A stretch of DNA of 63,754 bases, filler included, from Reclinomonas americana ATCC 50394 (GCA_048213135.1; 4 parts of one record of this genome joined end to end with filler, not necessarily neighbours in it), one strand, 5' to 3'. Counted from the first letter of the whole stretch, positions 4,151 to 63,634 are shown. Notes: generated by a model from the letters alone, not told the origin. A program made the numbers and translations.

Positions 4151-5552
4151 TCACGACCACGGTGTTGCCGGGCATCCTTGCGTGCAGCTGCCAACAAACA
4201 TGAGCTCTCCTCTATCGTAGCATGAGTAAAATAGTTATTACGCAACTTGAATCCGTTGCATCCGTCAATCCACGACAGCGGCTCGTGCACCTCTGACGAG
4301 TCCTGCGCTTGCCAGAAGCGCTCGAGAGCGTCGGAGAGCGTGACACCACCGACGTGCATGCGCGTGAAATCGTCACTGGTTGCCGCGCAGTGCGAGAAGC
4401 AGGCGCCGGCCCAGACCCCATGCGGCGGGCTGTCCCGGGCGGTGAACACGGTCAGCAGGGCAAAGAAGCCGGGTCGGAAGGTGTTCAGCGCATAGGTCTT
4501 CTCCTCGGTGGTCCACGCGCTCGGAGCGCCCCACTGGCCCAAGTCGGTGGACAGCTGCCACGCGTCATACTGCTCCGTGTGCACCAGCGTCGGCGTCTTG
4601 ACAAACGGCATGGCCACGCTGCTGAACAGACACATCCACGGCTTGGCGGCATTGGCCGCCACACACGCCTTGTTCAGCACCGGCTGCCACAACTCGTAGC
4701 CGGCATGCGCAATGGCCTCCAGCGAAGGCACGCGGTCGGGATGCAGCGTAGGCAGGTTGGTGAGCCAGCCGGCGTCGGCAAAGCCCGCGTGCAGCGGCAC
4801 CACCGACGCCGCCACATCCACCGTGTTGACCACGCCCTGCCCACCGGCCGAGCACCCGGCATACAGCACGCGACTGACGCCCGGACGCAGGCCATGCACC
4901 TGCACGAGATCCTCCATGGCCGCACGCACATGCGCCAGCCCGCGGAACACAAAACCAGCGGCGTCGGGCTGCGTTCGGTTGCCAGCAAACATGTCGCTGG
5001 AGCAGTACCTGCAAACGAGGCATGAGCGCGTGCATGTAAAAGGGACGTGGGTGAGCGACAGACACGCAACTGCACAAAGGCCAAGTGTGCGTCGGCAAAG
5101 AGCGCGTTCTTGGCGGCGCTCGGCGACAGCAGGCCGCCATCAAACGCCACCTGCTGCTTCCACGGGTGACTGCTCATCAACTCGGGATTCGACTTGTACC
5201 GCTGGCGACACGACTGCTCGTCTTGGCACCACGCACCACCCTGCAAGCAAGAGAGTGAGAAAAGAGAGTGAATGACAGTGTGTTTGTGTGCGCGCAAACC
5301 TGCAGGAAGACGACCCATGTGTCGGAGGTACCCGGGCGATAGTAGTAGCCACCGGGTGTCTGGTCGTTGCACACAGCGCCTGTGTGTGTGAGGGAGGAGA
5401 GTGAGGCAGTGAGTCGCGGAGCAATCACACTGGTGGAGAAAGAGATGAGGACCTCGCGACTGCGCGTCGGTGTACAAGTGCAGCGTGGCCATGGGCGCGG
5501 CGCATGCACACACGGCCAGAGCAAGCAACAGCAACAACAGCACGCTGCGCAT
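4151..5552 (-). CDS. Secreted Notum / pectin acetylesterase family carboxylesterase
   Basis: Signal peptide MRSVLLLLLLLALAVCACAA, then AVCNDQTPGGYY, FLQGGAWC, YCSSD, nucleophile motif GCSAGG, QYDAWQL, CFSHC and C-terminal DGCNGFNCTQGCP. Splice phases were consistent at the junctions checked. Confidence 0.88.
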
Positions 5553-5633
5553 CTCTCAGAGGCGACAAGAAATGACAAGTTTTGTCCCGCCCGCGCCACC
5601 GTTACTAGTATACTCTCCTGTCTCCAGCGAGTC

Positions 5634-7176
5634 ATGACGACCACGATCGTGAGCAGTGTGGAGTTTGTGCGCGAGGTGACGCAGCGCGCGCATGAGCTCA
5701 TTCGCGACACCGCGTGCAACGATCGCGACACACTGTATGAGCTCACGCGGATGCTGGAGTTGGACTCGCGAGGAGTCGAGGCGCCTGATCCACTCGCCGG
5801 CGACGATGCTGTGTGCCTGGAGGTCTCCTGCTCACTCTCACTATCACTTGTGCTCTTACACGCGCTGACTGTGACGTCGCGTAGTTGTTGCGAAAGCTGG
5901 TGATTCTGTTGGATACGGTGGATCATCGCGCGTTGCCCATGATGAGCAGCAGCATGTCGAAGCGGCAGCGCAAGAAGAAGAAGATGAAGGCGAGCAGTGA
6001 GGAGACAGGTGCATCGTCGTCATCGTCGTCGGTGACGGTGACGACACTGGGAGCGTTTGGGAGGATCTGTGTGCACGCGCTGCTGGCTCGCTTGTTCTCG
6101 CGGGTCGGTGACTTGTACACGGGCGAGGCGAGGGAGCTGTGGGAGCACGCGATCAAGGGCTGCCTGACGCTGGTGGAGAGCGAGGTTTGTCGGGTTGACA
6201 ACTGTTTGGTTTCGTTGGGCTCATCATATGCATCGCCTTGGGCCAGCCGAGCGATCGTGATCGGGAGGTGGAGTGTGCCAAGCTGTATGCCGTGCAATCG
6301 CTGGCGCAGTTTGTGCACTTTCACGGCCACGCCTTGTCGGGCCGTGAGCACGCGTGGGTCGGCAGCAGTCGGGCGGCCATTGAGCGGCAAGTGCTGCGGC
6401 GCGATGTGCGGCAGCAACGCCTGAACTCGGTGTGTGAGCAGATCTCGTCGCTCCTGTTCCACAGTGAGCACTCCTCGGCCTACACGCTGTATTCGATCTT
6501 GGCGTGGACGGTCGGCTTGGCGGCGCCGGTGCTGGCCCTGTGGCAGCGCAATTACGAGTGGCTCGGCTTGTCGGTGGCGTTGCGTCGTCTTTGTTTGATG
6601 TGCCTCACGCGTGCGCGTAGCTATGTTGCTCACGTGCGCGCAGCATGGATGCACTGCTGGTGGCCGGCACCATGTCGGAACAGGCCACGCGCCAGCGCAC
6701 ACTGCAGTTCCTGCTGGAGCCCAGCACGTTCATTGTGCACGATGTCGACATGCTCTCCCGCATGTACGCCCAAGGTGTGTGTGTGTGTGTGTGAGGGGGA
6801 GAGAGAAAGAGGGAGAGGGAGAGAAAAGGCAAAGTGAGTGTCGTGATATATCTCGGATTGGCATTGTGGGGTGGTGTATTGATTGATGTACATGGTATCA
6901 CACTGCTCACTCATTGGTGCGTTTTTTTCTCCACTCGTACTCGCAGAGCACGAGGAGGACTATAGCGGACGCGACGCGACAAGCTCCACAGTTGCGTGAC
7001 CGGGCAAGAGAGACGAGGGGTTGGACATGTTCACCGCACGCTCTCTCCGTCGGCGCGCGCAAACTCACTTTCGTGCACCTGTTCTATCGTGCTTCTGCTT
7101 CCACGTTGATCACAGTCCACCGTGAGTGTGTGGTGGCTATGGAGGGGCGTGGACATTTGTTCTCGCTCACCCTCCG

Positions 7177-12920: not shown

Positions 12921-15235
12921 TCAAATGCGTACCGGCTCACTCGACGATGGCGACGCCTGGCTCATCTCCGTGTCGGTGTTTCCCAGCGACTGCAGAAAGC
13001 ACCTCTTGAGTGAGAGAGAGAGAGAGAGAGAGGGCCACAACCTACAAGAAAGCTGCGACACGGACCTTGTACTTGTTGAGCTCGCGCTTCCGCATGCACA
13101 CGCACAAAATGGCGGTGGCGATGACAGCGGTCAAGCCGAGACCGAGACCCAAACCGAGTGCCAGTGCCAGCCGATTGGACGCTGCATGATGCCATGGAGC
13201 GTGAGACCACTCATAAAGAAAGGAGCAAGCGCATGCAGCAAGCGCAACCTTCTTGGCACGCGGCGCCCAAGTAACCCGCATCTGCGACACACGAGAGGCA
13301 ATGAGCGCACGTCCCCACCAAGTACACCTCTTCTTGCCTCTCACACGACTTACCGCACTCGCACGTGCCGAGGTTGCAGCGGCCGTGGCCGTTGCAGAGG
13401 TTGGCGCAGTTCGGGTAGCACGTGTCGGAGATCTGGAAGAGCGTGTCGGGCTGGGGACCCGGCACAAAGTTGGAGAACGAGAACACAATGTCGATCGGTG
13501 TGGTGCCGCCGCCAACCGGCTCGTAGCGTGTGCCGATGATGTGTGCTCTGCGCGCGCAATGGTGAGTCGCCATGGAGCAGACACAGAGAGGAGGAGGATG
13601 CAGGTGCCGCAACTCTACGGGCACACGCGCGCCGGGCAGGCCAACAAACACCCAGGTGGGGAGCGCATACGAATACGAGATGGTGCCGGCCTCCCTGTGC
13701 GGCGCATGCATGAGGGGCTGCAAATCAGCGCTCTATGCAACACATAGGCACACACACACACCTCATGCCGTCGACTGTGCGTTCAAACTTGCCAACCCAA
13801 ATGTCGCACGGAATGCCGCGTGCTGTCAACAGCGCACACAGTCATCAATGAGATATCACAAGAGCAGCGGTGCACAAGGCCGCATACACACAAACCCTCG
13901 CCCTGTGAGGTCCACACTTCGTCGGAGCTGGGGTAGCCAAGAATGTCGCCCGCTGTGAGGCAGAAGAGACGTGTCAATCGACAGCACAGAGACGCAAGAG
14001 GGAAGTGCTCTCGAGTACACTGAAGGAGAATGCTCTGTGTTCTCTTGTTCGTGCGGTCTCTTGTGGACTCTTGCTCTCCTCACCACTTGTCTCCTCCCTT
14101 TCTTCGCGTAAACTACGACACTTTCCACCTGCTACATCGCCTCTGCTCGCAATCGCTCACATGCCTGTTGTCTTCTTCGTCTCACATTTCGGTAAGCTAC
14201 ACCAAGGTGACTTGTCTCTCCTTGAGCCTCTTTGACACACTATCCTGCTCACTCCCTCTCGTCTCTCGGGCTTGCTTGCATAACTTGCTTTCTTTTCTAC
14301 TCAATCTTCTACATTGCACATCCTCGCACACCGTCTAACATGTCTTCATCACATCCATTTTGTTGCACCTCACCAGAGTGACTTGTCTTTCATCCCGTCT
14401 AGCAGTGATGTACTGAACCTCCTTCACACACTATCCTGCTCACTCCCTCTCGTCTCTCGGGCTTGCTCGCATAACGCTTTCTTTCTTCTTGCCCTCTCAA
14501 TCTTCTTTCCCTCCGGCCATGCTGCGTTAAACCTCGCATACTCGCGCTTGCAAGTGCTCTTGTCGTGCCTTGTCTTCTTCCTTTCCCCCTTCCCCTTCCC
14601 TCCCTCTCCTTCCACGCAACGAGAGACCGTGTTAAACATGGCATGCACCGGATCGAATCCAAACGGCGGCGCCGTCACCGGCGTGCACTGATCCCGCCCT
14701 CGCCGATCCCACACATACCCCGAATGCGCCGTGTAATTGTACACTCCCACAAAGTTCTGAGTCGCCGAGCGGCGCTGGTAAAACACGCGCATGTAGATCA
14801 AGTCCAACGTCTCATCCAAGTCAGTCCTGCACACGATGCATGCATGCGTGCATGCAGGAGTGAGGCTCATGCATGCTCTCTCTCTCTCTCTCTCTCGCGG
14901 TGTGCGTGCGTGTGTGTGTGTGTGCGAGAGAGAGACTCTTTCTCTCGTTCCTCTGTTGTCTCCTTCGCTTGTCTCTCTCCCCCTCTCCCTTCTCCTTGCT
15001 CTCTCTCTCTCTCTCTCTCCCTTCTTCTTCTCGTCCCTTTCTCTCTTTCCTCACGCAACGACGAGCGCAGCTGCAGGTCATTCGTTTGCACACTGATGGA
15101 GAACTGCAGCGGGAGCAGCGGCAGTGGATCGCCTGCTGCGGCCTCGGAGGGCGTTGGCAGCACACACGCGGTCAGCACCACCGCCACAGCAGTGGCGGCG
15201 AGGAGTGCGAGAAGAAGCGACCGTCGCCTGCTCAT
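12921..15235 (-). CDS. Type I membrane protein: ependymin/EPDR (LolA-fold)-like domain + EGF-like domain + TM
   Basis: Signal peptide; PLLPLQFSISVQ; FSFSNFVPGPQPDTLFQISDTC (ependymin-like C-terminal motif); CANLCNGHGRCNLGTCECDAGYLGAAC (EGF); TM LALALGLGLGLGLTAVIATAILCVC; short tail. Confidence 0.65.
14207..14475. repeat. Imperfect intronic direct repeat (~50 bp core, 2 copies)
   Basis: acacactatcctgctcactccctctcgtctctcgggcttgct occurs at ~14235 and ~14426. Confidence 0.7.
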
Positions 15236-15400: not shown

Positions 15401-18400
15401 TTAGAACTTCTTGCTGTCGCACAGGTGGATCGACGAGCAGAGCTTGTCGGGATCGCCCTTGTTGATGAAGCTGTGGGACGAAAGAGTGTCAGATAACAAA
15501 CCGCTGCACGACGGCGAGGACGACAATGAAGGCGCAACTACTGGATAATGTAGGCCGAGTACTCGCTCACAATGGCCTCGCAGGGAGCCGACACTGATGA
15601 CGGGAACAGCTCGCAGGCCTTGTCGAGCCAGGCTGTGACACGGATAGGTGAGCATACATAGCTGGAAAGCGTGTTTCGTGGCGACGAGCGCAACTCTGGA
15701 TCTCGGTCTCGGTGGCATTGGCGCTCAGCGCGTGCTCAGCCAGGCTGACGAGGTACTCGCAAGCTGCGTCGAGGGAGACGATTGAGCAAGAGAGAAAGAA
15801 GGGCAGACTCACACACACGCAGTGACCAACCAGCGCACTCAAGGCCGCCAGCAACCTGGACCTTCGGCAGAGTCACGGGCTCCTCCACAATGCGCGAGCG
15901 GATGGACTGGTGCGAGCGGGCAACCTTGACAAAGGTGGGGGCGGCAGCAGACTGATCGCGCAGAGACACACCATGAGAAGGGGAGAAGAGGAGAACATGA
16001 AGCTAAAAAATACAGTACCTTGCACAGCTTGATGTGCTGGCAGAACTGAGCCGGGGTGCCGATCTTCTTCACCAGGTACTGCGCGTGCTTATATGAGAAC
16101 ATCTCGTCATTGTGAAACGACAAATAGACTGTGGCACACACCTGGATGAGGTAGTCGCCGTACGAGTCAATGATCTGGTCGCACACCGACGTCAGCGAGG
16201 CCGGGAGGAACTTGCAGACGTTGGCCACCAGCGTCTCACTGCAGAGCGCGTGAGTTGCTCCATTCACAGCCAAGTAGACAGCGCACCACGATCCACGCAA
16301 CATCTCCTTGTCCGTTGGCTCCTGCGACAGCTCGCTCTCGATGATCGCCATGGCGTACTCGCAGCTGTGCAAAACAAAGAGATTGTCAGCATTCTCTTCA
16401 CCCACTGCTGAGCAATCAGCGACAAATGACGCAACGCAGGGCACTCCCACGAGACCTCCAGCGACTCGGTGCTGGTGGCGGGGGCCTTCTTCTGCACACA
16501 CACACACAGAGACAAGATAGTGGTGAGACGAGAACAAAGACACGACTGCTTCTTCCCATCAGCGCTCACCGAGCACACGCCAATGTGAGTGCAGAACTGC
16601 ACCGGCGTGCCCATCTTGTTCACGAGGAACTGCCACGATGCACACACCACTCAGCATTCACGACGCAATCGGCAGACAATACAAATGGACACCGATGCAC
16701 ACCTCGATCAGCTGATCGCCGTACTGGTTGAACATGGAGACGCACAGCTGCTGGATCTCTCCGGGCAGGAACTTGCACAGGTTGTCGACGACCTTGATGC
16801 TGTGGAGAGACTCTTCTCGTCAGAGATCACTTGCAGTAAAGTCTCTTCTCCTGCAGTGCACGACGCAACATGTCGGCCTCGGTGGCGTTGTCGCCCAGCT
16901 GGGACTCCAGAATGCCCATGGCGTACTCGCACCTGCATGCGGCACAGTGTGAGAGGGATGAAGAACACACAAAGAGACGTGATCGTGCCAAACAACGCAA
17001 CAGAGCGCACTCAGTGCCGCTCGACGCGGACACGGGCTCCGGCAGCTGGCTCGGCTTCGGGCACAGCGCAATCTTGACGCACAGCTGAGGAAGAAGACAA
17101 AAGTGTCAGCCGGGCAATCAATCCAACAACCACGTCAAGCGGCGTCAAGGTACCGTCTGCGGGTCCTCCTTGTTGATCAGGTAGTCTGCACAAATTACAA
17201 ATGTAAGAGACGACACACAAAACGCAATAAGATAGGAGGGCCAGTCCACTCACCAATGATGACCGGGCCGTAGATCTCGATAATGGTCTGTGGCATCTCC
17301 CTCAAGTTAGTCGTCACCGATCCACGCACAGTGAGACACACACGGCACGCAACGTCGCAGTCGGCCTTCAGCGAGCCCGGGAGCAGGCGGCACACGTTGG
17401 TGATAAAGTCGACAATCTCCTTCTCGGTGCGGTTGTTGGCGACAAAGCCCTCAGCCAGAGTCGCAATGTACTGGCACGCCTGAGAAGAAAAAGTAGAAAT
17501 GGTTAGCACACAACATGCACAAGCGTGCGGATAAAAGGAAATGACCCGACGTACCGTGCACTTCAGGTCCAACTGCACCGACTGGGGAGCAGTGTGGGTC
17601 TTGCTACCGCACAGCTTGATCTGCGCGCAGATCTGACAACAGAAAAAAACATACAAGGTAAGCTCCTAATCATCACAAGTAGCCGCAAATTCCTGGCGGG
17701 ACTCACCGTGGCCGGAGGCTCACGGTCCAGCAGCAGCTGAATCAGCTGGGGGGTATACGAATCGATGATGCTCTGCCAAGTTTCGCCCCACCAGTGAGCC
17801 ACTGCAAAAAAGAAAAAAACACACGACCACACCGCTCTCACCTCGCACAGGCCCTTCATGGCCGACGGCACAATGTTGCACACGTTCTCGAGGAACTTGG
17901 CGATCTCGGCCTCGGTGGCATTGTTGCCGAGGGCGTTCTCCGCCAGACCCATCATCCACTCGCACGCAGAGCACTCAAAGCCACCAGTGCTGGGCTCCTC
18001 AGTCTCAGTCTTGCAGATGCCAATCTGCGAGCAAATCTGCGCCACACTCACACGCGTCAACACACCATCACCGTCATCCATCTAACAGTACATTAGTACG
18101 CACCGTGGCCGGGGGCTCGCGAGCCAGCAGCAGCTGGATCAGCTGGGGAGTGTAGCCATCGATAATGCTCTGCCACGCAAAGTGAGCACATCATATGCTT
18201 TTCGCAAAGCATGCTTGACGCAGTACCTCGCACAGGCCCTTCATGGCCGACGGCACAATGTTGCACACGTTCTCGAGGAACTTGGCGATCTCGGCCTCGG
18301 TGGCGTTGTTGCCGAGGGCGTTCTCCGCCAGACCCATCATCCACTCGCAGACCTGCACACACACACACACACACACAAAAAAAAAAAACAGTCAACATGT

Positions 18401-50487: not shown

Positions 50488-53060
50488 GTACGATGTTGAG
50501 GTGATGATCCCCGGGCGACGGGCCAATGAACGAGCGCGCGCTGTGGTGTGGACCATGCACAGGCGGTATCGGCTGTTTCCGGATAAAGTGCTCGGCGCGG
50601 GAGGTTAGGAAAGTGGGAATGAGCAGAAAGATCATGATTGCAGTGGGGGACGCAGAGTCTCTCAATCTCACTCTCTCTTCTCCTGAGCCACACGTGACGG
50701 ATAGCAGGGGTTGCAGAGAGGCAGAGGCTGATTCTCTTTGCCTTGCCTGGGCCACTTTTGAAGAGAACTAGGCACAGTGAGACTCCTCTCTTGCCTGAGC
50801 AACACGCGATAGACAGCAGGAGGAGTACAGTGAGGAAGTGTCTGCTTCTCTCTCGCTCGTTCTCTCTCTCTCTCTATGTGTGTGTGTGTGTATGTCCCCT
50901 TCTATGCTCTCCTGCCCTCTCTCTCGCGTGAGCCATACGTGAATGGACGCAGGATAGTAGAGTACGGGGGCTTCTCTCCCCCTCACCCAGCTGCACGTGA
51001 GAGAAAGCACGAAAACCCCCGAGGTCTTCCATGAATGGATGCAGGATAGTTCGAGAGTAGTTGAGCACGAGGATTTCCTCATCCCCCTTGTCCAGCTGCG
51101 CCTTTTAGAGGAAGCGCAGAATCTTGCCGCAGCACGTGGCCTCGCTCTCCCCTCTCTTGCCTGAATCACGAGAAAGAGAGCAGACACAGTGAGCGTTTCG
51201 AGAGCATTACACGTTCTGATTGAAGCACGAGTCACTTACACTTGCGTCCCTCGTTTGTTTGCGCAGCGTACGGTGTGGTGGTGTTGCGTCCTCTTCCCCT
51301 CCCTCCACTACATCCGTCTCCCACGTATTCTTATCTCTCTTCTCTCTGTCAGCGGGGGGCTTGACACGCGAGACAATTGTTATGTCGCGGTCAAGCGCAT
51401 GGACATTGGTTCGACATTTGCGCCATTCGTGGTCGCCCGGCGTGCGTATCGCGAGGTGAAGCTGCTGATGCCACTCGACCACCCGAATGTTGCGTAGCCG
51501 AGTCGACAACTCAGCACTTTTAAACGTCGTCTCACTTTCCACGTGCATCGCACACACAGATCATCAAGCTGCGTGACGTGATGAAGATGCCCGACAAGGA
51601 GTCGTGCAACACGGTGTACTTGGTGTTTGAGAAGATGGACACGACACTGACGTGGTTCGTGAGCGCGCCTCATTCTTGGACCTCCTCACCGGTCCCGTCT
51701 GCTCACTCGCTGAGTCGTGCAGGGTCATTCGTTCGCCGCAGCCTCTCAGCACCGAACACATTCGCACGTTCATGTATCAGATTTTGCGAGGATTGCGCTA
51801 CCTCAAATCGCGCTGTGTAATTCATCGCGATATGTTGCGTGCCGATTGCGAACTTTTAGCTCAGTCGTGGTGGTGTTTCGTGCGTGATCAGCAAGCTCCG
51901 TTAGCTCCAACTTGCCTGACCAGAAGACTCGCGGATTCTACGTCTCCTTGTGCTTCATTCTCTCCGCAGCACCTGTGTTCGACTCTCTTTCCCCGGTGCC
52001 TCAGCTGGCTCGACCAGTTAGAATCGTGCATTCTCTGTCTCCGTGTGCTTATGTCTCTCTGCAGCTCCTGTGCTTGACTCTCCTTCCTGGTGCCTCAGCT
52101 GGCTCGACCAGTAAGAATCGTGCATTCTCTGTCTCCTTGCGCTTTAATCTCTCCGCAGCTCCTGTGCTTGACTCTTCTTCCTGGTGCTTCAGTTGGCTTG
52201 CTCGCGCATGCTCTTTCTCTCTGTGTTTCTCTCTGAGGCACCTGTGTCTGATTGTCATCCGTGACTCTTGAGACTCGTGCCAGCTTTGTCTTTGTGCTTG
52301 TTTCCTACCTGCGGCTTCTGTGGTTATTTGTCTTCCCTGGCGCTTCAGTTGTCTCTTCCAACGGAGACTTGTGCATTTTCCCTCTCAGCCCCATCATGTG
52401 CATGTCTTCCTCGGCGGTTGTACATGCTGTGTTCTCTCTTCCCCTCACTTCCCTCCCCCCTCCCTCCCCACTTCCGCCACACAGCAAACCAAGCAACCTC
52501 CTGGTCAACGCCAACTGCGACGTGAAGATTTGCGACTTTGGTCTGGCACGCGGTGCGTGGTACGGCGAGACAGATGCCGTGGCCGAGATGGTCATCAATC
52601 GGACGTACCCCGTGGTCACCATCTGGTACCGCGCGCCCGAGCTGCTGTGCCGTTCTCGCAACTATTCGTACGCCAGTTGCGTCGTATGTTCCACTTGTTT
52701 ACCGGCTGCAAGGCAGAGTGCTAAAATGAGGGATGTGCAGTCGACATGTGGGCCACCGGCTGCATTTTTGCTCAACTCATGCTCCGCGCTCCACTGTTTA
52801 AGGCCGACCGAGGTATTTCGGCGGAGCGAGAAAAGGCAGTCAACGTTATGATGCTGATTGTGTGTTCGTGCAGAGGAGGAGCTGTTCACATCGATGATCT
52901 CTGTGCTCGGGTCGCCATCCAAGCAGGATCTGGAGGAAATGGAGATTCAAGATGTGGATCTGTTCATGCAACAACTCGGTCCACCCGTCGCACCTCGTGA
53001 ACTTGCCGAACTGTTTCCCGGCGCTGATGCTGATGGTGCGCGCCTGCTTCTGCTCGTCGT

Positions 53061-53593: not shown

Positions 53594-56500
53594 CTATCGA
53601 TCTTGCGACAGGATGATGATGCTGTAGGCACCGATGGATGTATCCGCGTAAAACAAATAACCATCGCGACGTCCGCTCACTGCCTCCACGCTCCTGTCGT
53701 ATATAACAAAAGGGTGGCATAAGGGTTCTTTTCTTGCGACACACGCGCGGCAACAACGCAACTGGCCGACTGGCAAGCCGTCATTGTGCAGTATCTCGTG
53801 GTAGGCGCCGCTGTCGCTGTTGAACCTGTGCGGCAATCAACAGTCAGCCATGGCGTCCACTCACCCCCACATCGCCGTCGCCGCCGCAAGAGACGTACCG
53901 AACAACCCAGCGTCCAGGCCGTGGCAGACCGATACGATACACGGGGAACTTGGTGTTCGAAAAGTTGGCCAGCACAATGACATCGTCACCCGGGCCGCCG
54001 CGATCCCTGCCCACATCATATTAGCGACCTGACCGCCAACAAAGAAGCGATCAGTAACACAAGCAAACCATCGGTGGAACAAGATGGCAGGCGCCGCCTG
54101 GTTCGAGTGATGCACGCGAACGTGTTGCCCAGTGAGACCACGAGTCGTGCCGTCCTTGTTCAGTCGCAGGCGCAGTAGATCAGAAAGCATCATGAACATG
54201 GCTGCGTGCAACGTAAGGTGATGAGCAACGCGATGCACTCCCTTCCTTCACAAACAAAACGCCCTCACCTCGCCCGGCGCCCCGTTCACGTCGCGTCATG
54301 TCGAAAACCGGCGGTGCTGGCCACTTGTGCGGGCTCTGCCACTCGGCCACCTCCTGGCCCTGCAGAAGCATGGGAATGCCCGGTGCGCACAGCAACATGG
54401 CATTGACGAGACTCGCTCGCTTCAGCGAAAAGTAGTTTTCGCCTTGCGTGCGATGCGAGATGGCCTCCACCAACCGGTGCTGTGCGCACAATGAGCCACT
54501 CCTTGACATGTGCAAATCTATATCACATGCAGCCACAAACCTGCCGATCAGCGGGCACCGTGTCGTGCGACTCGGTGTAGATCAGGCGAGAAAAGCCGTC
54601 GGTGGTGAAGCGGTCGACAAGAACCTCGCGCACGAGCTGCATGTCACGTGCCTTGTCCGAGTGTTGAGTGGCGGCATTGTACATGACGGAGAAGAAGCGC
54701 GCGTCCCACTGCGAGTCGCAGCAGCAACCGCCACCATTCATGATCGGATCGTGCTGCATATCCTCCGCAATCACGTGGCAGTCGGGGAAACGCATGTGAA
54801 TGTCGTCGCAGATTTCCTACAATGCAGCAGTAAGTCGGCCATTATCCCCCCACACACGCAAGTACATGCATGTACCTGCAGAAGCGTGTAGGCCTCAGGC
54901 AACTCCTCATTGGCCGTCGTGCGGCGCATGGTATTCGTGGAGTCGATGCGCAGGCCGTCCACGTGATACACCTCGAACCACTCCATCATTGAGTCGCGAA
55001 TGTAGCGCCGCACGTGCGGCTTGCTGAAATCGGGACGCGGACCGTACGGCGTGTCACTGTGGGCGAAATAGTGAGTGCAAGTAGAGGGGAAAAGAATCGT
55101 GAGGTGACCCGGCCGTACCGCTTCTTGTCGTTGGGATAGAACCAGCAATTGGGCAGCACACTCTCCGAACTGTGCAGGGCGTTCAGCGTCTCACTGCAGA
55201 GTGGGAAAAGAAACAAAGCTAAACGCACCTCATGTGGTTCGGCACGACGTCAATGATCACCGCAATGTGCAGCTCGTGTGCCGCATTGACGAGAGCCTTG
55301 AGGTCGTCCGGTGTACCGTACTCGCGGTGAATGGCAAACAGGGAGACTGTGCAGCGATGCACAGCGTCAGAAAAGGTGGGTTTCTCGTTGACGTACACAC
55401 TGTTCTAGTGCCGCAACTCGGATCGTAGCCCCAGCACTGCGAGTGGCGATCTGCGCACTTAAACACCAGTGAGCGACGAGAACACCTGCACACATAGCAC
55501 ACCGTCCATGCACGTCACCTTGCGTGACCGGCATGAGCTGAATGGCAGTCGCGCCGAGGTCTGCCAAGTGTTGCAAGCCGGCAATGGCACTCTGGAAGGT
55601 GCCGTGCATCTGACCCGCCGGCACCACAAACGACCCAATGTGCATCTCGTAAATGATAAGGTGCTCTGCGCCAACACGAGATGGCGATGAGTGGGAAAGT
55701 CAGCGCAACAGGTAAGAGGAGAGCACACCTCTCGGAGGCGGCTTGTAGCCGGCGTCGGTCCACGCAAACTGCATGTGATCCCACACAACACTGTGCATGC
55801 GTTGACGGCCACGCAGGTCGCTGGCCACCACGACGGCCGATCGCGGATCCACCAGCGTGATTTGCGTGCCAGTGGCCGTGGTGGCCACCAGGGTGTACTG
55901 CTGCCCGCACCTCGCCTGCGGCACAGTGCCACAAAAGAAGCCATCGTCGTCTACTCACACGCAGTCCACGGTAAGAACACAGCAAGAGCAAGGCACGTGC
56001 AGGGCGCGCCACCTACCAACACGATCCAGCGGGCAAGCGCCCACCGTCCAGTCGTTAAACTCGCCCACCACGCAGGCAGAGACGGCCGTCGGTTCCCACA
56101 TGGAGAAGAAGAGTCCGGCACCTCCGTCGTCCACATGAGCAAACGGAGTCGCGCTCTCCCGATACAGCCCACGAGCTCTTTAAGAGTAGCCACAGATTGA
56201 GGATATAAAGCGCATACAGTAGAACTAGGGCAACACGCAACTCCTCCAGTGGTCGCACAGAGATGGTCGAGACCAGCTCGAAACCGCAATGATTGCACGG
56301 CTGTTCCAACTGACGCAGAGGTCGTCGTTGTCCGCACCGGTAACACTCAAAGTAGTCGTCGACACTGGAAGGAGCTGCAGCAGACAAGGCACCGATGGCA
56401 TGCGAGGCCAGGGCCAGTGAGCGCGATCCACTGTCCGCTCGTCGCGTGTGACACACCTATTCTCGACCATGATCAGACAGACAAGGCGGGAGAATAGCAC

Positions 56501-56898: not shown

Positions 56899-57088
56899 GT
56901 CGACAGCAAAAATCCTGTCATGGCTTGTCCTGTTCGTGTTCTCGCCCCTCTTGTCTTTGCACGAGTTGGCTTGTCTCTGTCTGTTGTCTGTCCACCGCGG
57001 AGACGAAAGATTTTTCGCGTTTCATTCACGGCACATGACAAAGAGGCAAAAGAAGAAGAAAGGAACAAGCCACCGGAAGGTTGGCAGC

Positions 57089-60000
57089 TTACGCTGTGCG
57101 ACCAAACGCAGCCCAGCTGTAGTCGACCTGCGAGACTGCGCCAGTGGTGACTGCGAAGCACACCTGGAGCGAGGCGGCGGTGATGGCGCCCGTGGTGAGG
57201 CTGAAGTTGTATGCGCTGTTCGACGAGGTGGCACGGTATCCGCGCACGAATACGGCGGCCACTGGCGCGCTGGTGAAGTGTCCGCTGGAGAACGTGATGG
57301 TGTCTGCAGGGCAACCGGCAGCCGAAACCGTACCCTCGCCGGCCAGCAAGCCGTATCCGCTGGGTGAGCTGTCGGGGAACGACAGGTACTCTGCGTGTAC
57401 GCAAAAGTCAGATTTTACACGAGCTGCACAGACAAGCGCGCAATACGCAACGGTAGGTGAGACGCGACATGCGGGTATCGCCGTACAGCACCGCCTGATA
57501 GCGGAAGTCGCGGCGGCCGACACCGACAAACACACCGCCCGAGAACGACGTGTCAAAGCCGGTGGCGCTGTACAGTGCACGCAGGGAGGTCACCAGCGAC
57601 GGGGTGGAGGCATACGGGCCGAGGCTGCTTGCCCGATCCTGCTGCCGCACAGTCGGCAACACGTCGCCGCTGGGCGCCCACCAATCGCGGCGGAGTTGTG
57701 AGGAGAAGTAGACGGCGCCTTGCGACGTGAGCGACACGTCACGCGGCGTGTATTGCGCCAGCACGTTGATCTCCAGGTTCTGCACGTAGGAGTGAGCATC
57801 AACGACAACGAGGACAATCTGCATTTACTACTGCGTACCGACACCGAAGTCGAGCCGTAGGTGAGGCAGCGGATGGTGATGCCGAATGCGTCAAACTTGC
57901 TGCTCACACACAATATACCACGAATGGGCAAGAGCGTTCATACTTTGAGACACAGTCAACAGGTGCACGCAACGTGGCAGCACAGTACACACGGCTGTCG
58001 GTCACACCGAAACCAATGCCGGAGAAACCAGTGATGACGGCCGGACGGCGGGCTGAGTATTTGCAGTCAGAGAGAGACGATTGCCAACGTACAAGAGAAA
58101 GGGACCAATCGATCGTACCGAATCGCTGCGGGAAAGTGATCTGGGTGACCAAGGTGCGCGTGCCCGGTGGCGCGTCAAACATGGAAGCCGTCCACTCGGG
58201 TGTCGGACCGACGGCTGGCGTAATCTGAGCCGTGTACACCTCTGCAGAATGAAAGAGAGAAGAAAAGCACGTGGTTACCATACTGGCAAAACACAGGAGC
58301 ACCCGAGTGACGCACGGCTGCCAATGGTCAAGAGACCGCGCGAGTTCTCGTCCGTGAGCGGCAGGTTGATCCACGTGCCACCCGCGTTCTGTCGGTAGCA
58401 CACTTGCATGGCGCGGCTCGGGGCGGCCACACTCAGCTTCACAACAAACGTCTGGTACACTGAGGTGTGCGGCAGCAGTTGCAAGAAGCCAGACGGTTCT
58501 GCGGTGGTGCTTGCAAAGCGCGTGACATCGGCATCGTCGGCGCCATTGCATGTGCCAGCGTTGCTCAGGGTCTCGATGGCGAACTCGGCGCAATCCGTAA
58601 ACTGGCCTTGCAGCGTGAGAGCAACCTGAGTTGCTGTCGGCTGGGGAGTGAAAGGGGAAGTCAGTCGCACAAGCACCACATCAAGTAGAGAGAGAGAGAG
58701 AGGAGGGAAAGTAGTACGCACGGCAAACTCAGGATGCGTCCACGTCGGCGTCGACGCGAAAGCTGCAGTAAAGACCGACGAGGACAAGTCAGTATGACAG
58801 ACAAGGAAATCTTTGCGGACATCCAACGCAACGAATGACTTGGATGGTGCGAATGGGCACGTACGACTCGCTGGCGCTCCACTGCACGCAGATCGACAGG
58901 TTGTTGCTCAGCGACGGTGCGCTGACATTGAACGCGCCAGTGCAGTCGGCACGCGTGCTAACGGCGAGAATGTATCGGCTTCCGGTCGGCGCGCTGACGG
59001 CCGTGGCGCTGATGGAGGCGTTGGGGACGGCAGTTGGCGTGCCGGCCGTCGACGCCAAGCAGTCGGTGTCGGAAGAGAGCACGAAAGTGGCGCCGGTGAG
59101 CGGGAACTGTGCGCCAGTGAACTTCATTTGCGCATTGGCGATGCCAGTCGGAATCTGTGTGGCCGTGTCGGCGGCGAACGTGGCCTTCACTGCAGTCACA
59201 CAAGAGACACAAAAATGTTAGCGGGAAGAACAAAGACAAGAGGGTAGAGACGGATGTTTCTCGTAACGCAACAGACGTGCACGGTTCCGTTGATCACGGC
59301 GCGGTAGGTGCCAGAGGCGTTCAGGTTGGCGCACAGCGTGAGGCCGTAGCGTCCGACAGTCTGCAGGGAGGTGTCGAACTTGAGGGTGACGTCGGTGAGG
59401 CCCGTGTACGTCTGCACCGTGGTCGGGATGGTGGCCGAGTAGTTGGAGCCGGTAGTGCACGACGAGGTCGTGAAGAGGGCATACGTGTCGGTGGCCTGGA
59501 AGCCGGCGGCGTTGGTGTTGAACTGCACCAGAATGTTGGCCTGCGACGACGTCAAGTAGACGGGAGTTGGGGCGGCAAAGCACGGTCCGTTCACAACCAG
59601 GGTGCTACCGGTCCACGTCACCACCGTGTTGCCGCTGACGTCGCTGGTGGCGCACACGTAAACAGGGGTGAGTCGACGATCAGGGTGAGCCGTTGTGTCA
59701 ACGATCCACGTCTGGGCCGTCGAGGTGCCACCGGCTTGCGGCGTGATGGCTATAGTGCCCGCGTACGCGGTGAGGCAGTCGGCCGCCGTGAACAAGCTAT
59801 ACGATGAGGTGGCAGCAAGCGGCACCGCAAACAGATCCTTGCCGCTGACGGCGACGGACTGCAGGCCAAGGCTGGTGCAAGTGCCCGCATTCACCGAGAA
59901 GGGACTGTCGCAAGCAAGGGAGGGAGAGGGTGGGTGAAGGATTTCGACGGGTACAGCACCGCTGCTCACATCACTTACCGAGGCACCGTCACGCACGGCC

Positions 60001-61228
60001 GGTCAATGTTGACAATGTTGCCGGTGTTGCTGTAGTTGCCCTCGACGGCGGTCTTCATGCACAGGAAGAGGCCGGTGAGCGAGGTGGACTGGAACACGGT
60101 GTTGAAGCCGAGTGTCTGGTTAGCCGCATCCGAGTAGGCGCGCACAGTGATCACCACATTGGTGTTGGCGCTGGCAGCCGCGCAGTCGGCGCTGGTGAAC
60201 AGCTGGTACGACAGGCCGGCAGTGGCCGGGGCGGGGAAGTCGGTGCCCACCACCACAATATCCTGCGGGTTGGTGACGCACGAGCCGGCGCGCAGCGGCG
60301 TAATGACCGGCGTGGTCACGCAGGCACCTGTCAACAGGGGTGAGTAAAGCGTGCAACGATAGAGAGTGAATGGAAATGAAGACAACTGACCATTGAGGTT
60401 GACACTCGTGCCAGTGTAAGCGTAGGTGCCGGTGGCCGTGGAGCGCGAGCACAGGTATCCCGTGGCATTCGCCGCACCAGAAGCGCTCGTGTACGACACC
60501 GTCGACGCCGCCAACGACAAGGTCGCCGTCACCGACGTGACGCAGTTGGTGTCGGAGAAGAGCGCCAAGCTGTTGACCGTGGCCAGGTTGGAGCCGGTGA
60601 CCGCCACCGTCTGCGTGGCAGGCGCACCACCACCGCAGCTGGTCGCCGCAAACTTGATCGCGCGCGGAGCAGTGACACACGCGCCATTGACATTGACAAC
60701 TGCAGTGGTGTCGCTGAACGAGCCACCAGAGGTCGACGACACGCACAACAGCAGACCACTGTGTCACACACACACACACACAATGAGCGATCATTGCTGC
60801 TGCACAGTCACTCACGCAATGAACGCAACGTGCTGCTCAGTGAGTAGCCAGTGGTGTCAAAGGTCAGGTCGACTGAGGTGGCCGAGAGGTTGCTGGCTGT
60901 GATGACAATGTTGTTGATAATGTCGCTGTTCGAGCAGGCGGGGTTGGCCGAGACCACTGCTGTGCGGTAGAGAGTGGTGGAGGCATTGGTGGGCAGTGCT
61001 GCGCCTGCAAAGGTGCGAGTGATGGTGGAAGGAGTGGCGAAGCAGGCGCTCGAGTTGGGCACGAGAGTGATGATGGTGCCAGCGGTCACTGTGTGCATAT
61101 GTGAGAGAGTGTGTTGTGAGAGAGAAGAGTTGGAGGAGAGAGACGCAACACGTCTGTGCATTTGCCACGGAGCAGCACACGAGCAGGAGGAGGACTGCAA
61201 AGAGTGACACGCGAGTGTGCGTCGTCAT
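57089..61228 (-). CDS. Secreted protein with tandem Cys-containing Ig/TIG-like modules and C-terminal H-type lectin-like domains
   Basis: Signal peptide MTTHTRVSLFAVLLLLVCCSVANA; ~110 aa modules (G.C...P...V.G........LF....C...LC.....G.Y); C-terminal ITFPQRF..PAVITGFSGI and ITFSSGHFTSAPVAAV...VDYSWAAFG. No TM seen. Confidence 0.6.
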
Positions 61229-61399
61229 GACTGTGCGTGTGTGTGTGTCGAGTGAGTGAGTGAGTGAGTGAGTGAGTGAGAGAGAGGGCATGCACACCAA
61301 AGTGTCGCGAAACCTTCTTGGTGTTGGTGATTGTGCGCGCGCGCGCGAAAAAACCTTGAGATTTTGATGGTGTTTGTGCAAGATTTCGCGCCAAAAACT

Positions 61400-63634
61400 T
61401 TACTTGGACTTTTTCCGCCGGCTAAATATGGCCGTCTTATGCATCGATCCGCTTCGGCTGGGCGTAAACGAAGGGCCGTTCGTCTTGCCGCCCCTCTTGT
61501 GCGCTCCGGTCTTCTTTTGCTTCTTGTTCCTCTTGTTCTGGCTTGCGGCAGCCTTCTCCGCAGCCTGCAGCTCCGCCAGGTCGGGGTCAGAGTCGTCGCC
61601 GGCGGCTTCGCTGCCGCTGCCGCTGCTGCTGCCCTTGACTACCTCGGCGGTGGTGTCGTCGAACGGCTCGTCTGCGCCGCCAAAGAGCGCCTCAAAGTCT
61701 TTTTCCGAGATCTTGCGCGACTTGAGCTTGCGCAGCAGGCGAGCGTCGTTGGCAAACTCCTCCGCGTCGCGCGCCATGGCATCGCGTTTCCTCTTGAACC
61801 GTTCGCGACGTGTCAGTGGTGTGGCTGCAGCAGCGGCCGCCTTGGCGGCTGCGGTGGCCTTGGCCTTCTGTCGCACCATTTGCTCTGCGCGTCGCGTCTC
61901 GGCCTCGGCCTCCATCTTGAGCATGCGCGCCCGCCGAGCCTGCTCGCGGCTCTTCTCGCGGTACGGAATGTTTGCCACATCGACGTCCTCCATCGGTGGG
62001 AAGCGATCCATGACCTTGCGCAGCTCCGGCATGCGAGGCAGCTGGATGGTGCGATGAGTGGAAGCGGGAGAGGGAGAGGGGGGTGGGAGGGAGAGACGCA
62101 CCGCTACGAGAGAGAACAAGTGGGCCAGCGCAATGAGATCGAGAGCCTTCAGTCGGAAAATGTAGCTGCACTTGTGCTCCCGGTAGCCGCGCACGTATGA
62201 CACATACGCTTTTTGTGCCTTGTCAAAGAAGTCGCGGTCGGTGGCGGCCTCGCGTCGCACCAGCTCAAAGTACCGTAGCCGGTCGGCGTTGGTCGACAGT
62301 CCCGTCGATTTCGACGACACTCGTGCGCCCTCTTCTTCGTCTTCGTCTTCCTCCTCCTCTCCCTCGGCATCGTCCCTCATCTCCGCATCCTCTCCTTCTT
62401 GTGCTGGCCGAGCCTTGAAGGGAGCCAGAAACTCAAACTGTGTGTCCTCGATGGGAACCTTGCCGAGGCGCAAAAACTCTGCACACTCGCTGGTGAGTGA
62501 AAACGCACGCNNNNNNNNNNNNNNNNNNNNNNNNNNNNNNNGTACACACCGTGTCGTGCAACACGAGCGAACCAATGTATGAATCCTCCGCAGGGGTGAG
62601 AAAGAGGAGGGCACGACCGCGGCGACCCATGCGCGCCGTCCTTCCTATTCTGTGTACCATCATGCTGGGATCCTGCGGCGGATCCACTCTGTGCACACCA
62701 CCGTCGCACAGTGAGAACACCATCGTCGCCCCTTCCACCCCCACGCTCGTCAACGCAACTGAATCACAAAGTCAACGTCGGGAATGTCGAGTCCTCGAGC
62801 CGCCACATCGGTGCACACCAGCACACCGCGCTCCGCCTTGACAAACTGCTCGTACGTTCCGGTGCGGCGCTTCGGCACCATTTGCCCGTGCAGCGAGAAC
62901 ACCTCGGTCCGTTCACCGTCGCCAGCCGCCAGACACACACGCAGCACCGACGCAAAGTAGTCCACGCAAGCGCACGTGAGGAAATACACGATGCACTTGT
63001 CGGCCACATGGTGGCGCAGTGTCGCCACCAGTGCCGCGATCTTGTCCTCCAGTCGGCACACCAGGTACTCGTTGGTCAGCCTGCGAGTGACGAAGAAGAA
63101 TGAGCGAGACCGACTGCGTTGCTCTCTGGAATGGCACGCAACGTCTTGGGGATCTTCGAGTCTTTGGGATGTGAAGAGGCGGGTGCCGCAGCCGTGCTGT
63201 CGGTGGCTCGTGGTTGCACGCGGACAGTGACCTTGACAGGGTTGCGCAGACCGGCGCGAATCAATTCCTGCAAGTCGTCCGTTTGGGTGGCCGAGAACAG
63301 GCCCTGGTGTTCGAGCAGCAGATGGTGTGAGTAGTGTGACACGCGAAACGAGGAATGGGAGAATCAACGAGCGAACCGTGCGTCGTTGTTTTGGCAGCCT
63401 GGTGAGAATCGACGAGATCTGGTCGCGGAAACCCAGCTCAAGCAACCTATCCCAGCCGAAATGTGTCAATACCATCATGCACAAAATCGATCATGCACTC
63501 GGTGAGTGCGCACCGATCGGCCTCGTCGAGAATCAGCAGCTCCACGTGCCGCGTGATCAGTCCACGCTCAATGAGGTCACCAAGACGCCCCGGAGTGCCA
63601 ATCACCACCGCACACGATCGCACTCGGCGAAACT
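61400..63634 (-). CDS. DDX55: DEAD-box RNA helicase DDX55/Spb4; 5' end outside the window
   Basis: [101 protein letters not shown]. Confidence 0.93.

What the first reader, a model, noticed from the sequence alone, without database searches (positions are those of the whole stretch)
5070..62759. Window-wide use of a GTTGCG 5' splice site that fits a +1 shifted U1 register
Seen: about 25 apparent donors read |GTTGCG(T) instead of G|GTGCGT or G|GTGAGT. Cutting at this GT restores conserved protein at every junction I checked: MAPK 51489 (HPN|IIKL), 51834 (HRDI|KPSN), 52676 (YA|IDMW); esterase 5070 (FVQ|YCSSD); saposin 16301, 16435, 16869, 17001, 17353, 18777, 19169; DDX55 62759 (VIQ|VDPPQDP). 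At those junctions exon position -1 is never G, so GTTGCGT aligns with G|GTGCGT offset by one base. Established: shifted-register U1 pairing is known for rare human GUUAAGU donors. Inference: here it is a common donor class, which suggests a lineage-specific change in U1/U6 recognition.
Basis: partly seen in the sequence, partly recalled or inferred. Interest (0 to 1): 0.72.

Follow-up and report, generated by a model that had tools for sequence, protein, structure and literature searches.

The report
Offset GTTGCGT splice-donor class
In this intron-rich eukaryotic contig a large share of introns begin with GTTGCGT after an exon that does not end in G, which looks like the genome's usual G|GTGCGT signal read one base out of step and hints that intron starts are recognised in an unusual way here.

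Summary
GTTGCGT occurs 46 times against 15.7±4.0 in shuffles. 41 of the 46 lie on the predicted sense strand.

Candidate GT/GC…AG junctions were scored against fetched homologues or uninterrupted saposin repeats. A self-trained gene finder predicts 34 GTTGCG donors among 198.

Exon position -1 is G at 0 of 15 homology-supported GTTGCG donors and at 19 of 21 other supported donors (p=2e-8). Predicted GTGCGT donors keep -1 G (9 of 16); GTTGCGT donors do not (0 of 31).

These introns share no sequence beyond the donor and have ordinary length, CAG acceptors and branch-like motifs.

Best reading: a genuine, abundant U2-type donor subclass recognised in a register shifted by one base. The mechanism is inferred. 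No RNA-seq run, U1 or U6 gene, or whole genome was available. I rate it a new variant of a known kind.

The parts
5009..5070 (-). Intron with gca|GTTGCGTG donor in the pectinacetylesterase-like gene (AFVQ/YCSSD)
   Evidence: Best homology score, 120.0 against 110.2 for the next donor. Pfam PAE profile positions run on across the junction: 51-97, then 105-349.
62689..62759 (-). Intron with tca|GTTGCGTT donor in DDX55/SPB4 (DFVIQ/VDPPQDP)
   Evidence: Best score, 292.0 against 281.3.
63081..63142 (-). Intron with gac|GTTGCGTG donor in DDX55/SPB4
   Evidence: Best score, 217.7 against 208.3.
51283..51352 (+). Intron with ggt|GTTGCGTC donor in the MAPK gene, after a 16-nt micro-exon (AYGVV/V)
   Evidence: Best score, 67.1 against 59.0.
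51489..51559 (+). Intron with aat|GTTGCGTA donor in the MAPK gene (HPN/IIKL)
   Evidence: Best score, 93.8 against 84.8.
51834..52484 (+). 651-nt intron with tat|GTTGCGTG donor in the MAPK gene (HRDI/KPSN)
   Evidence: Best score, 213.5 against 202.5. The gene finder missed it.
52676..52740 (+). Intron with cca|GTTGCGTC donor in the MAPK gene (YA/IDMW)
   Evidence: Best score, 148.4 against 137.1.
55347..55417 (-). Intron with cga|GTTGCGGC donor in the GH13 branching-enzyme-like gene
   Evidence: Best score, 903.1 against 896.5. It replaces the gene finder's donor at 55396.
19104..19169 (-). Intron with cat|GTTGCGTG donor in the saposin gene
   Evidence: Best (65 against 60) but second by 3 points. 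The downstream exon VDFLLNKEDPAT matches the paralogous exon YLINKEDPQT.
18717..18777 (-). Intron with gat|GTTGCGTA donor in the saposin gene (TEQE-I/VTFVENVC)
   Evidence: Best (85 against 71) and (margin 6).
17288..17353 (-). In-frame, stop-free 66-nt intron with gac|GTTGCGTG donor in the saposin gene
   Evidence: Best (margin 10). Not among the four best printed (scores 96 to 95). The gene finder read through it.
16933..17001 (-). Intron with tct|GTTGCGTT donor in the saposin gene (ECAL/CEY)
   Evidence: Best (79 against 68) and (margin 17).
16800..16869 (-). Intron with cat|GTTGCGTC donor in the saposin gene
   Evidence: Best (115 against 101) and (margin 21).
16365..16435 (-). Intron with tgc|GTTGCGTC donor in the saposin gene
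   Evidence: Best (54 against 44) and (margin 16).
16239..16301 (-). In-frame 63-nt intron with gat|GTTGCGTG donor in the saposin gene
   Evidence: Best (85 against 73) and (margin 29).
15633..15694 (-). Intron with aga|GTTGCGCT donor in the saposin gene
   Evidence: Best (112 against 104) and (margin 18).
15471..15538 (-). Intron with gta|GTTGCGCC donor in the saposin gene
   Evidence: Best, but only marginally: 65 against 64, margin 3.
53694..53762 (-). Predicted intron with cca|GTTGCGTT donor in the GH13 gene
   Evidence: Gene finder. Homology scores are tied in the unconserved C-terminus.
56154..56241 (-). Predicted intron with gga|GTTGCGTG donor
   Evidence: Gene finder only.
57391..57451 (-). 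Predicted intron with acc|GTTGCGTA donor
   Evidence: Gene finder only. A stop codon lies in the read-through.
57900..57973 (-). Predicted intron with cac|GTTGCGTG donor
   Evidence: Gene finder only. A stop codon lies in the read-through.
58763..58832 (-). Predicted intron with ttc|GTTGCGTT donor
   Evidence: Gene finder only. A stop codon lies in the read-through.
59190..59272 (-). Predicted intron with tct|GTTGCGTT donor
   Evidence: Gene finder only. A stop codon lies in the read-through.
60759..60829 (-). Predicted intron with cac|GTTGCGTT donor
   Evidence: Gene finder only. A stop codon lies in the read-through.
1562..1628 (-). Predicted intron with aaa|GTTGCGTC donor in the DNA ligase gene
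   Evidence: Gene finder. Not tested by homology.
4188..4246 (-). Predicted intron with caa|GTTGCGTA donor downstream of the PAE domain
   Evidence: Gene finder only.
6579..6643 (+). Predicted intron with ggc|GTTGCGTC donor
6991..7115 (+). Predicted intron with aca|GTTGCGTG donor
   Evidence: Gene finder only.
13182..13248 (-). Predicted intron with aag|GTTGCGCT donor; the only predicted member with G at -1
   Evidence: Gene finder only.
13953..14620 (-). Predicted 668-nt intron with GTTGCGT donor
   Evidence: Gene finder only. Low confidence.
14827..15059 (-). Predicted 233-nt intron with GTTGCGT donor
   Evidence: Gene finder only.
29202..29271 (-). Predicted intron with cga|GTTGCGTG donor
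   Evidence: Gene finder only.
30918..30989 (-). Predicted intron with agc|GTTGCGTG donor
   Evidence: Gene finder only.
33058..33128 (-). Predicted intron with gac|GTTGCGTT donor in the NHL-repeat gene
33507..33571 (-). Predicted intron with cca|GTTGCGTC donor in the NHL-repeat gene
   Evidence: Gene finder only.
33823..33898 (-). Predicted intron with cac|GTTGCGTC donor in the NHL-repeat gene
   Evidence: Gene finder only.
38716..38779 (-). Predicted intron with caa|GTTGCGTA donor
   Evidence: Gene finder only.
39540..39585 (-). Predicted intron with cga|GTTGCGTG donor
   Evidence: The donor was also picked by the signal-free gene finder. The acceptor is uncertain: 46 nt against 439 nt.

Best explanation
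GTTGCGT, and more rarely GTTGCGC or GTTGCGG, is a genuine and abundant 5' splice site of ordinary U2-type GT-AG introns in this genome.

The normal donor here is G|GTNNGT, with G|GTGCGT among the commonest. It has a nearly invariant G at -1, G at +5 and T at +6. The second class is H|GTTGCGT. Its seven bases equal the seven bases G-GTGCGT with the second G replaced by T, and the cut falls one base further upstream.

Inferred mechanism:
- The RNA that reads the donor (U1, and later perhaps U6) pairs with G·UGCGU in the same way at both kinds of site. At GTTGCGT sites it therefore sits shifted by +1 relative to the cleavage site.
- The intron's own +1 G then takes the place that the exon's -1 G normally occupies.
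- The catalytic core still cuts in front of the only GU available.

This would allow introns to sit after exon ends that cannot be G, which fits the excess of phase-2 introns.

Shown: the sites are donors, the class is common, and -1 is not G. Inferred: which molecule reads the motif, and in which register.
For: 1. Enrichment and orientation.
- GTTGCGT occurs 46 times against 15.65±4.03 in shuffles.
- 41 are sense and 5 antisense. In Pfam/homology-oriented genes the split is 25 and 2.

2. Homology.
- GTTGCG is the best donor at 16 of 55 scored junctions in MAPK, DDX55, PAE, GH13 and saposin.
- 15 of these have a margin of at least 5 over any other donor.

3. Gene finders.
- Without any splice-signal model, GTTGCG (8) ties with GTGCGT (9) as the top donor hexamer among 97 predicted introns.
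- With an intron-side-only donor model, GTTGCG accounts for 34 of 198.
- 31 of those 34 introns are needed to keep the frame open.

4. Register.
- -1 G: 0 of 15 against 19 of 21 in the homology-supported sets (p=2.4e-8).
- -1 G: 1 of 34 against 83 of 164 in the predicted sets (p=2.3e-8).
- -1 G: GTGCGT 9 of 16 against GTTGCGT 0 of 31 (p=8e-6).
- Other +3-T donors keep -1 G: GTTTG 7 of 8, GTTCG 5 of 7.
- +5 is C in all 34 GTTGCG donors. 16 of 21 supported canonical donors have +5 G.
- The -1 base of the class (A5, C3, T7, G0) resembles canonical -2 (A6, C9, T4, G2).

5. Specificity. No predicted donor among 4 sense GTTGAGT or among 10 sense GTTGTGT.

6. Paralogous saposin introns. CTG|GTGAGT...CAG|TGC at 21316 and CT|GTTGCGT...CAG|GTGC at 17001 lie one base apart.

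7. Phase. 20 of 34 are phase 2 against 30 of 102 (p=0.004). Without saposin it is 14 of 27 (p=0.04).
Against: - No transcript evidence: no RNA run was listed.
- No U1 or U6 gene in the window and no genome held. The reader of the motif and its register are therefore untested.
- The homology margins (6 to 29) are mostly the cost of one extra residue, against a GC donor 3 nt downstream.
- The saposin donors are paralogues: 9 sites at about 4 independent positions.
- The signal-trained gene finder reinforces itself and is error-prone. It recovered 6 of 9 then-verified donors, and homology moved its donor at 4 of 12 GH13 introns.
- Against the genomic background, where G precedes GTT at 0.17 to 0.22, the lack of -1 G is only moderately significant: 1 of 34, p=0.002 to 0.01. 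The strong contrast is with the other donors.
- The predicted-set -1 distribution differs somewhat from predicted canonical -2 (p=0.016).
- With a human-like U1 5' end these sites would pair very weakly in any register: -1.1 to -3.2 kcal/mol.
Confidence: 0.55

Rival explanations
1. Bulged register. U1 pairs with +1 G and +2 U as usual, one of the two U's (+2/+3) bulges out, and pairing resumes on GCGU. The site is then a canonical-register donor with a one-base bulge, not a shifted one.
For: A +2/+3 bulge register is a validated human mechanism (passages of PMC4856993). It explains equally well why UGCGU sits one base further into the intron.
Against: In this register the partner of -1 stays free, so -1 G should be favoured as at other donors. 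It is G at 0 of 15 and 1 of 34 GTTGCG donors, against 19 of 21 and 83 of 164 others. Even GTGCGT donors with full intron-side match keep -1 G (9 of 16, against 0 of 31).
Confidence: 0.2
2. A dedicated reader. A second U1 variant, another snRNA or a protein is complementary or specific to GUUGCGU in the canonical register, so this is a separate donor class with its own recognition factor.
For: The class is restricted to one heptamer: no predicted GTTGAGT or GTTGTGT donors. T at +7 matters: GTTGCGT is 41 sense to 5 antisense, GTTGCG followed by A, C or G is 17 to 19. A human-like U1 end would bind it very weakly. Variant U1 genes exist in humans (listing and abstracts only, PMC3561869 and PMC10870369).
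Against: It needs changes at about four positions of a highly conserved RNA end. It leaves the exact one-base relation to the genome's own G|GTGCGT as coincidence. Acceptor, branch-like motif and length do not differ from other introns, so nothing else marks a separate system.
Confidence: 0.15
3. Not the real cut sites. The introns start at the GC three bases downstream (GTT|GCGT..., GC-AG introns) or elsewhere, or the motif is a by-product of gene prediction or chance.
For: The GC donor 3 nt downstream is the usual runner-up and keeps the frame. There is no RNA evidence.
Against: That alternative adds one residue and scores lower at every one of the 15 supported junctions, for example HRDMFKPSN against HRDIKPSN. 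The heptamer excess and strand bias are independent of any gene model.
Confidence: 0.05
4. A family of mobile introns (introner-like elements) that carry their own GTTGCGT start.
For: Lengths are uniform: 26 of 34 lie between 59 and 76 nt.
Against: Pairs of these introns share an 8-mer beyond the donor no more often than other introns do: 50 of 496 pairs against 381 of 4186. The other introns have the same median length, 69 against 69.5.
Confidence: 0.03

Closest known systems
Human '+1 shifted register' 5' splice sites (cited as reference 10 in PMC4856993; passages read)
   Same: The donor is a poor match in the canonical register and a good match when all pairs move by one position. The cut stays at the GU, so U1 position and cleavage site are uncoupled.
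   Different: In humans all validated non-canonical registers together make up 1.5% of 201,541 sites. Here the class is 34 of 198 predicted and 16 of 55 homology-scored donors. The motif is UGCGU-based rather than UAAGU-like. No experiment exists for this genome.
Human bulge +2/+3 register 5' splice sites (reference 16 in PMC4856993; 68 predicted and 54 curated sites)
   Same: A GUU start followed by the usual intron-side consensus one base late.
   Different: A bulge leaves -1 free to pair. The class here lacks -1 G (0 of 15; 1 of 34).
This genome's own canonical donors, G|GTGCGT, G|GTGAGT and G|GTACGT
   Same: GT-AG ends, the same acceptor CAG, the same length and the same branch-like motif. 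Seven-base identity apart from one base.
   Different: Canonical donors have -1 G (19 of 21) and +5 G. The class has -1 A, C or T and +5 C, with the cut one base upstream relative to UGCGU.
U12-type (minor) introns, the textbook example of a second donor class (recalled knowledge, plus the mention)
   Same: A second, sharply defined donor motif beside the major one.
   Different: There is no RTATCCTT-like donor, and nothing distinguishes the 3' part of these introns. U12-type introns are about 0.36% of human introns, far rarer than this class.

Membership tests
U2-type GT-AG spliceosomal intron | GT at +1/+2 and AG at the 3' end, with removal restoring the reading frame and conserved protein | tested here: met
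   15 junctions have a homology margin of at least 5. 31 of 34 predicted introns are needed for an open frame. The acceptor is CAG in 33 of 34.
U2-type GT-AG spliceosomal intron | Branch-site-like CTNAY and a pyrimidine-rich tract upstream of the 3' splice site | tested here: inconclusive
   The motif is present in 21 of 34, against 60 of 102 other introns. Pyrimidine content is 61% against 65%. It is a motif count only; no branch mapping was done.
Shifted-register (+1) 5' splice site | Poor canonical-register match, notably no G at +5, and a consensus match when read one base later | tested here: met
   +5 is C, +6 G and +7 T in 31 of 34 predicted and 13 of 15 supported donors. Canonical donors have +5 G and +6 T.
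Shifted-register (+1) 5' splice site | Exon -1 behaves like canonical -2, because the intron's +1 G takes the -1 place | tested here: met
   -1 is A5, C3, T7, G0 against canonical -2 of A6, C9, T4, G2. In the noisier predicted sets the two differ at p=0.016, and against canonical -1 at p=1e-8.
Shifted-register (+1) 5' splice site | Rescue by compensatory U1 only in the shifted register; complementarity of the organism's U1 5' end | not testable with these tools
   No U1 in the window, no genome and no RNA data.
Bulge +2/+3 register 5' splice site | Canonical pairing of -1, +1 and +2 retained, so the -1 G preference is retained | tested here: not met
   -1 G at 0 of 15 and 1 of 34, against 19 of 21 and 83 of 164.
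GC-AG intron | The intron begins at GC | tested here: not met
   The GC start 3 nt downstream scores lower at all 15 supported junctions.
U12-type intron | RTATCCTT donor and TCCTTAAC-like branch site (motifs recalled) | tested here: not met
   Donors are GTTGCG. The printed intron sequences show no such motifs.
Introner-like mobile introns | Sequence similarity along the intron body between copies | tested here: not met
   8-mer sharing in 50 of 496 pairs, against 381 of 4186 in other introns.

The most novel reading that the evidence does not exclude
In this lineage the 5' end of U1 (and perhaps the U6 contact) has been retuned to GUGCGU. Shifted-register recognition, a curiosity in humans, has become a major route used by a fifth or more of all introns. 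The spliceosome accepts either exon-G + GU or GU + U in front of GCGU, and cuts at the first GU. This frees intron positions from the need for a G at the exon end.
Probability: 0.4. Interest if true: 0.8.

Novelty: new variant of a known kind. Interest (0 to 1): 0.62.

Why it matters
If transcripts confirm it, this organism would be a natural system in which the place where the donor signal is bound and the place where the intron is cut differ by one base at a large fraction of introns. The question of how the cleavage site is fixed after U1 leaves could then be studied genome-wide rather than on a handful of human sites.

It also matters for annotation. Gene predictors trained on GTRAGT-like donors, or on a single weight matrix, will miss or misplace a fifth or more of the introns of this genome.

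Tried and rejected
- RNA evidence: the look-up of sequencing runs on 53200-62500 listed no RNA holder. Read laying could therefore not be used.
- Whole genome: none is held.
- Rfam at gathering threshold over the window gave 0 matches, so no U1 or U6 is present here.
- Organism and relatives:
  - DDX55, PAE, MAPK and GH13 searches found no close relative. The best were 36 to 66% identity over parts.
  - A metagenome scan with a DDX55 exon gave at best 48 to 64% identity.
  - Those 80 loci show no GTTGCGT excess: 57 have none and the rest have 1 to 3.
  - The organism stays unidentified.
- Signal-free gene finder: it recovered only 1 of 9 verified donors exactly. I used it only to rank donor hexamers.
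- First call of the junction scorer: it returned no candidates for three junctions because the flank ran into neighbouring introns. These were redone with short flanks. The MAPK junction across the N gap at 53142-53161 could not be scored.
- DNA ligase junctions (1628, 1074, 191): no homologues were on hand and an N gap lies in one intron, so they were not scored.
- Literature:
  - Searches for GTTGCG or GUUGCG, alone and with splice terms, returned only primer-type hits.
  - A search on divergent U1 in protists returned nothing relevant.
  - I therefore found no description of this donor class in the library searched. A genome paper that shows it only as a logo would not have been found.
- Duplex energies with the human U1 end cannot separate shifted from bulged pairing.

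Full report
**What the window is.** It is a 63,754-base draft stretch of a eukaryotic genome.
- It has 14 runs of N and a G+C content of about 0.5 to 0.64.
- Pfam scans of long open frames and of predicted exons show nine recognisable genes:
  - DNA ligase (1-2900, -)
  - a pectinacetylesterase/Notum-like esterase (3310-5552, -)
  - a many-domain saposin gene (about 15400-21400, -)
  - a Kre9/KNH domain (24876-25325, -)
  - an NHL-repeat and Ig-repeat gene (31376-37452, -)
  - an uninterrupted NACHT-pentapeptide-WD40 frame (43409-47304, +)
  - a MAP kinase (51200-53600, +)
  - a GH13 branching-enzyme-like gene (53597-56152, -)
  - DDX55/SPB4 (61403 to the window end, -)
- Protein searches found no close relative; the best were 36 to 66% identity over parts. 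I cannot name the organism.

**Is the motif there, and beyond chance?**
- GTTGCG is at every cited coordinate.
- As a hexamer it is only slightly enriched: 83 against 64.2±8.4, and 3 of 100 shuffles reach 83.
- The informative unit is the heptamer. GTTGCGT occurs 46 times against 15.65±4.03, and no shuffle of 100 reaches 46.
- By the gene finder's strand assignment, 41 copies are sense and 5 antisense. GTTGCG followed by A, C or G is 17 to 19 (binomial 4e-8).
- That strand assignment used a donor model. I therefore also tallied by hand only the genes oriented by Pfam or homology: 25 sense, 2 antisense (p=5.6e-6).

**Are they donors? Method.**
- I fetched homologues for four genes.
- For each exon pair I scored every frame-compatible GT- or GC-to-AG intron near the junction. 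The score was the BLOSUM62 alignment of the joined peptide to those homologues.
- For saposin, the references were three saposin domains of the same gene that are uninterrupted in the DNA.

**Are they donors? Results.**
- The GTTGCG site was the best candidate at:
  - 5070, 62759 and 63142
  - 51489, 51834 and 52676
  - 51283
  - 55417
  - 18777, 17001, 16869, 16435, 16301, 15694 and, marginally, 15538
- Two cited sites are less clean.
  - 19169 was best (65 against 60) and second by 3.
  - 17353 was not among the four best printed (scores 96 to 95) and was best by 10.
- The usual runner-up is the GC three bases downstream. It adds one residue, for example HRDMFKPSN instead of HRDIKPSN. The margins of 6 to 29 are largely that one-residue penalty, repeated at every junction.
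- Over all junctions scored, GTTGCG was best at 16 of 55: MAPK 6, DDX55 4, PAE 2, GH13 12, saposin 31.
- The saposin sites are paralogues and represent about four independent intron positions.

**Gene finders.**
- I wrote a hidden-Markov gene finder that knows only coding and intron composition, GT, AG, frame and stops.
- It places boundaries poorly: 1 of 9 verified donors was exact. Even so, its 97 predicted donors are led by GTGCGT (9) and GTTGCG (8).
- I then added donor and acceptor models learned from its own output, with the donor model restricted to intron bases. This version gives 198 usable introns, of which 34 start with GTTGCG, 16 with GTGCGT, 14 with GTGTGT and 12 with GTGAGT.
- This version recovers 6 of 9 verified donors and is self-reinforcing. 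Homology moved its donor at 4 of 12 GH13 introns, so its counts are predictions.
- 31 of the 34 GTTGCG introns are needed to keep the frame open.
- Of the 41 sense GTTGCGT copies, 31 are predicted donors. Two of the five 'exonic' ones are the in-frame introns at 17353 and 16301.

**The -1 base and the register.**
- Among homology-supported donors (margin at least 5), -1 is G at 0 of 15 GTTGCG sites and at 19 of 21 other sites (p=2.4e-8).
- Among predicted donors the figures are 1 of 34 against 83 of 164 (p=2.3e-8).
- Two controls bear on the mechanism.
  - Donors with the same intron-side match keep the exon G: GTGCGT 9 of 16 against GTTGCGT 0 of 31 (p=8e-6).
  - Other donors with T at +3 keep it as well: GTTTG 7 of 8, GTTCG 5 of 7. 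Supported examples are cag|GTTTGCGC, atg|GTTTGCTT, gtg|GTTCGTGA and acg|GTTCGCTC.
- So the class is not simply 'T tolerated at +3'.
- Canonical donors here read G|GTNNGT, with +5 G in 16 of 21 and +6 T in 14 of 21. GTTGCGT has C at +5 and G, T at +6 and +7. That is the same UGCGU one base later, with the intron's first G where the exon's last G normally is.
- The class's -1 base (A5, C3, T7, G0) resembles canonical -2 (A6, C9, T4, G2).
- Caveats:
  - Against the plain genomic background, where G precedes GTT in 17 to 22% of cases, 1 of 34 is only moderately low (p=0.002 to 0.01).
  - In the noisy predicted sets, class -1 and canonical -2 differ at p=0.016.

**Specificity and further pattern.**
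- The class is confined to UGCGU. None of 4 sense GTTGAGT and none of 10 sense GTTGTGT is a predicted donor, although GTGAGT and GTGTGT are common canonical donors.
- GTTGCG introns are enriched in phase 2: 20 of 34 against 30 of 102 (p=0.004). Without saposin it is 14 of 27 (p=0.04). This is what one expects if they serve exon ends where a G, as second codon base, would constrain the protein. That reading is an inference.
- In the saposin repeats one intron position carries CTG|GTGAGT...CAG|TGC in one copy (21316) and CT|GTTGCGT...CAG|GTGC in two others (17001, 16435). It is the same place, slid by one base.

**What it is not.**
- These introns share 8-mers beyond the donor no more often than other introns: 50 of 496 pairs against 381 of 4186.
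- They have the same median length, 69.5 against 69.
- The acceptor is CAG in 33 of 34. A CTNAY-like motif occurs in 21 of 34 against 60 of 102.
- That speaks against a mobile-intron family and against a minor-spliceosome-like class.

**Mechanism.**
- The shifted register and the +2/+3 bulge register are both established for rare human sites. All validated non-canonical registers together are 1.5% of 201,541 human donors (passages of PMC4856993).
- The loss of the -1 G preference favours the shift over the bulge.
- A human-type U1 end would pair with these sites at only -1.1 to -3.2 kcal/mol, against -8.9 to -14.0 for canonical strings.
- So either the U1 end differs in this organism, or other factors carry recognition, or a variant snRNA exists.
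- None of this can be decided here: no U1 or U6 in the window, no genome, no RNA runs listed, and no related loci with the motif.

**Prior description.** Four searches for the motif, alone and with splice terms, and one on divergent U1 in protists found no description of such a donor class. A paper showing it only as a logo would have escaped these searches.

**Verdict.**
- The shifted-register interpretation is the best-supported reading, but it rests on sequence statistics from one window.
- I rate it a new variant of a known kind, with moderate to high interest pending transcript and snRNA data.

Noticed in passing
window 53597-56152 (-): The GH13 branching-enzyme-like gene has about 12 short introns. 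Its best full-length matches are about 600-residue proteins. The only organism-named matches are bacterial (Dyadobacter, Salmonirosea, a Thermoanaerobaculia MAG); the top-ranked ones are unnamed metagenome proteins. This may be an acquired gene that has since gained introns.
   Followed up: partly
window 51267-51282 (+): A 16-nt micro-exon encodes the AYGVV part of the MAPK glycine loop. It lies between a CAG acceptor and the 51283 GTTGCGT donor. The exon upstream of it was not located.
   Followed up: partly
window 17288-17353 and 16239-16301 (-): Two saposin introns are in frame and free of stop codons (66 and 63 nt). Retention would add 22 or 21 residues rather than break the frame, and the gene finder read through both. 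A similar case may exist in the DNA ligase gene at donor 191.
   Followed up: partly
window 43409-47304 (+): A NACHT - pentapeptide-repeat - WD40 protein is encoded by an almost uninterrupted frame of more than 1,150 codons, in an otherwise intron-dense region.
   Followed up: no
window 51840-52480 (+): By eye, the 651-nt MAPK intron holds several tandem copies of a roughly 60-nt unit (...ctcctgtgcttgactct...cagctggctcgaccagt...). The next large intron (53040-53340) is CT and CCCT microsatellite around an N gap.
   Followed up: no
window-wide canonical donors: Outside the GTTGCG class, -1 G is almost invariant (19 of 21 supported donors). +4 G is nearly absent (4 of 102 predicted +5G donors), while +3 may be G, A or T. 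The consensus G|GTNNGT is unusually strict on the exon side.
   Followed up: partly
window 15400-21400 (-): The saposin gene holds at least ten SapB domains. Intron positions are only partly shared between repeats: the TEAEI-position intron is present in four repeats and absent in others.
   Followed up: partly
window 36395 (-) and 41728 (-): These are the only two GTTGCGT copies preceded by G. Neither is a predicted donor: the only predicted GTTGCG donor with G at -1 is 13248. 41728 lies antisense to the predicted + strand gene at 41652-42896.
   Followed up: no
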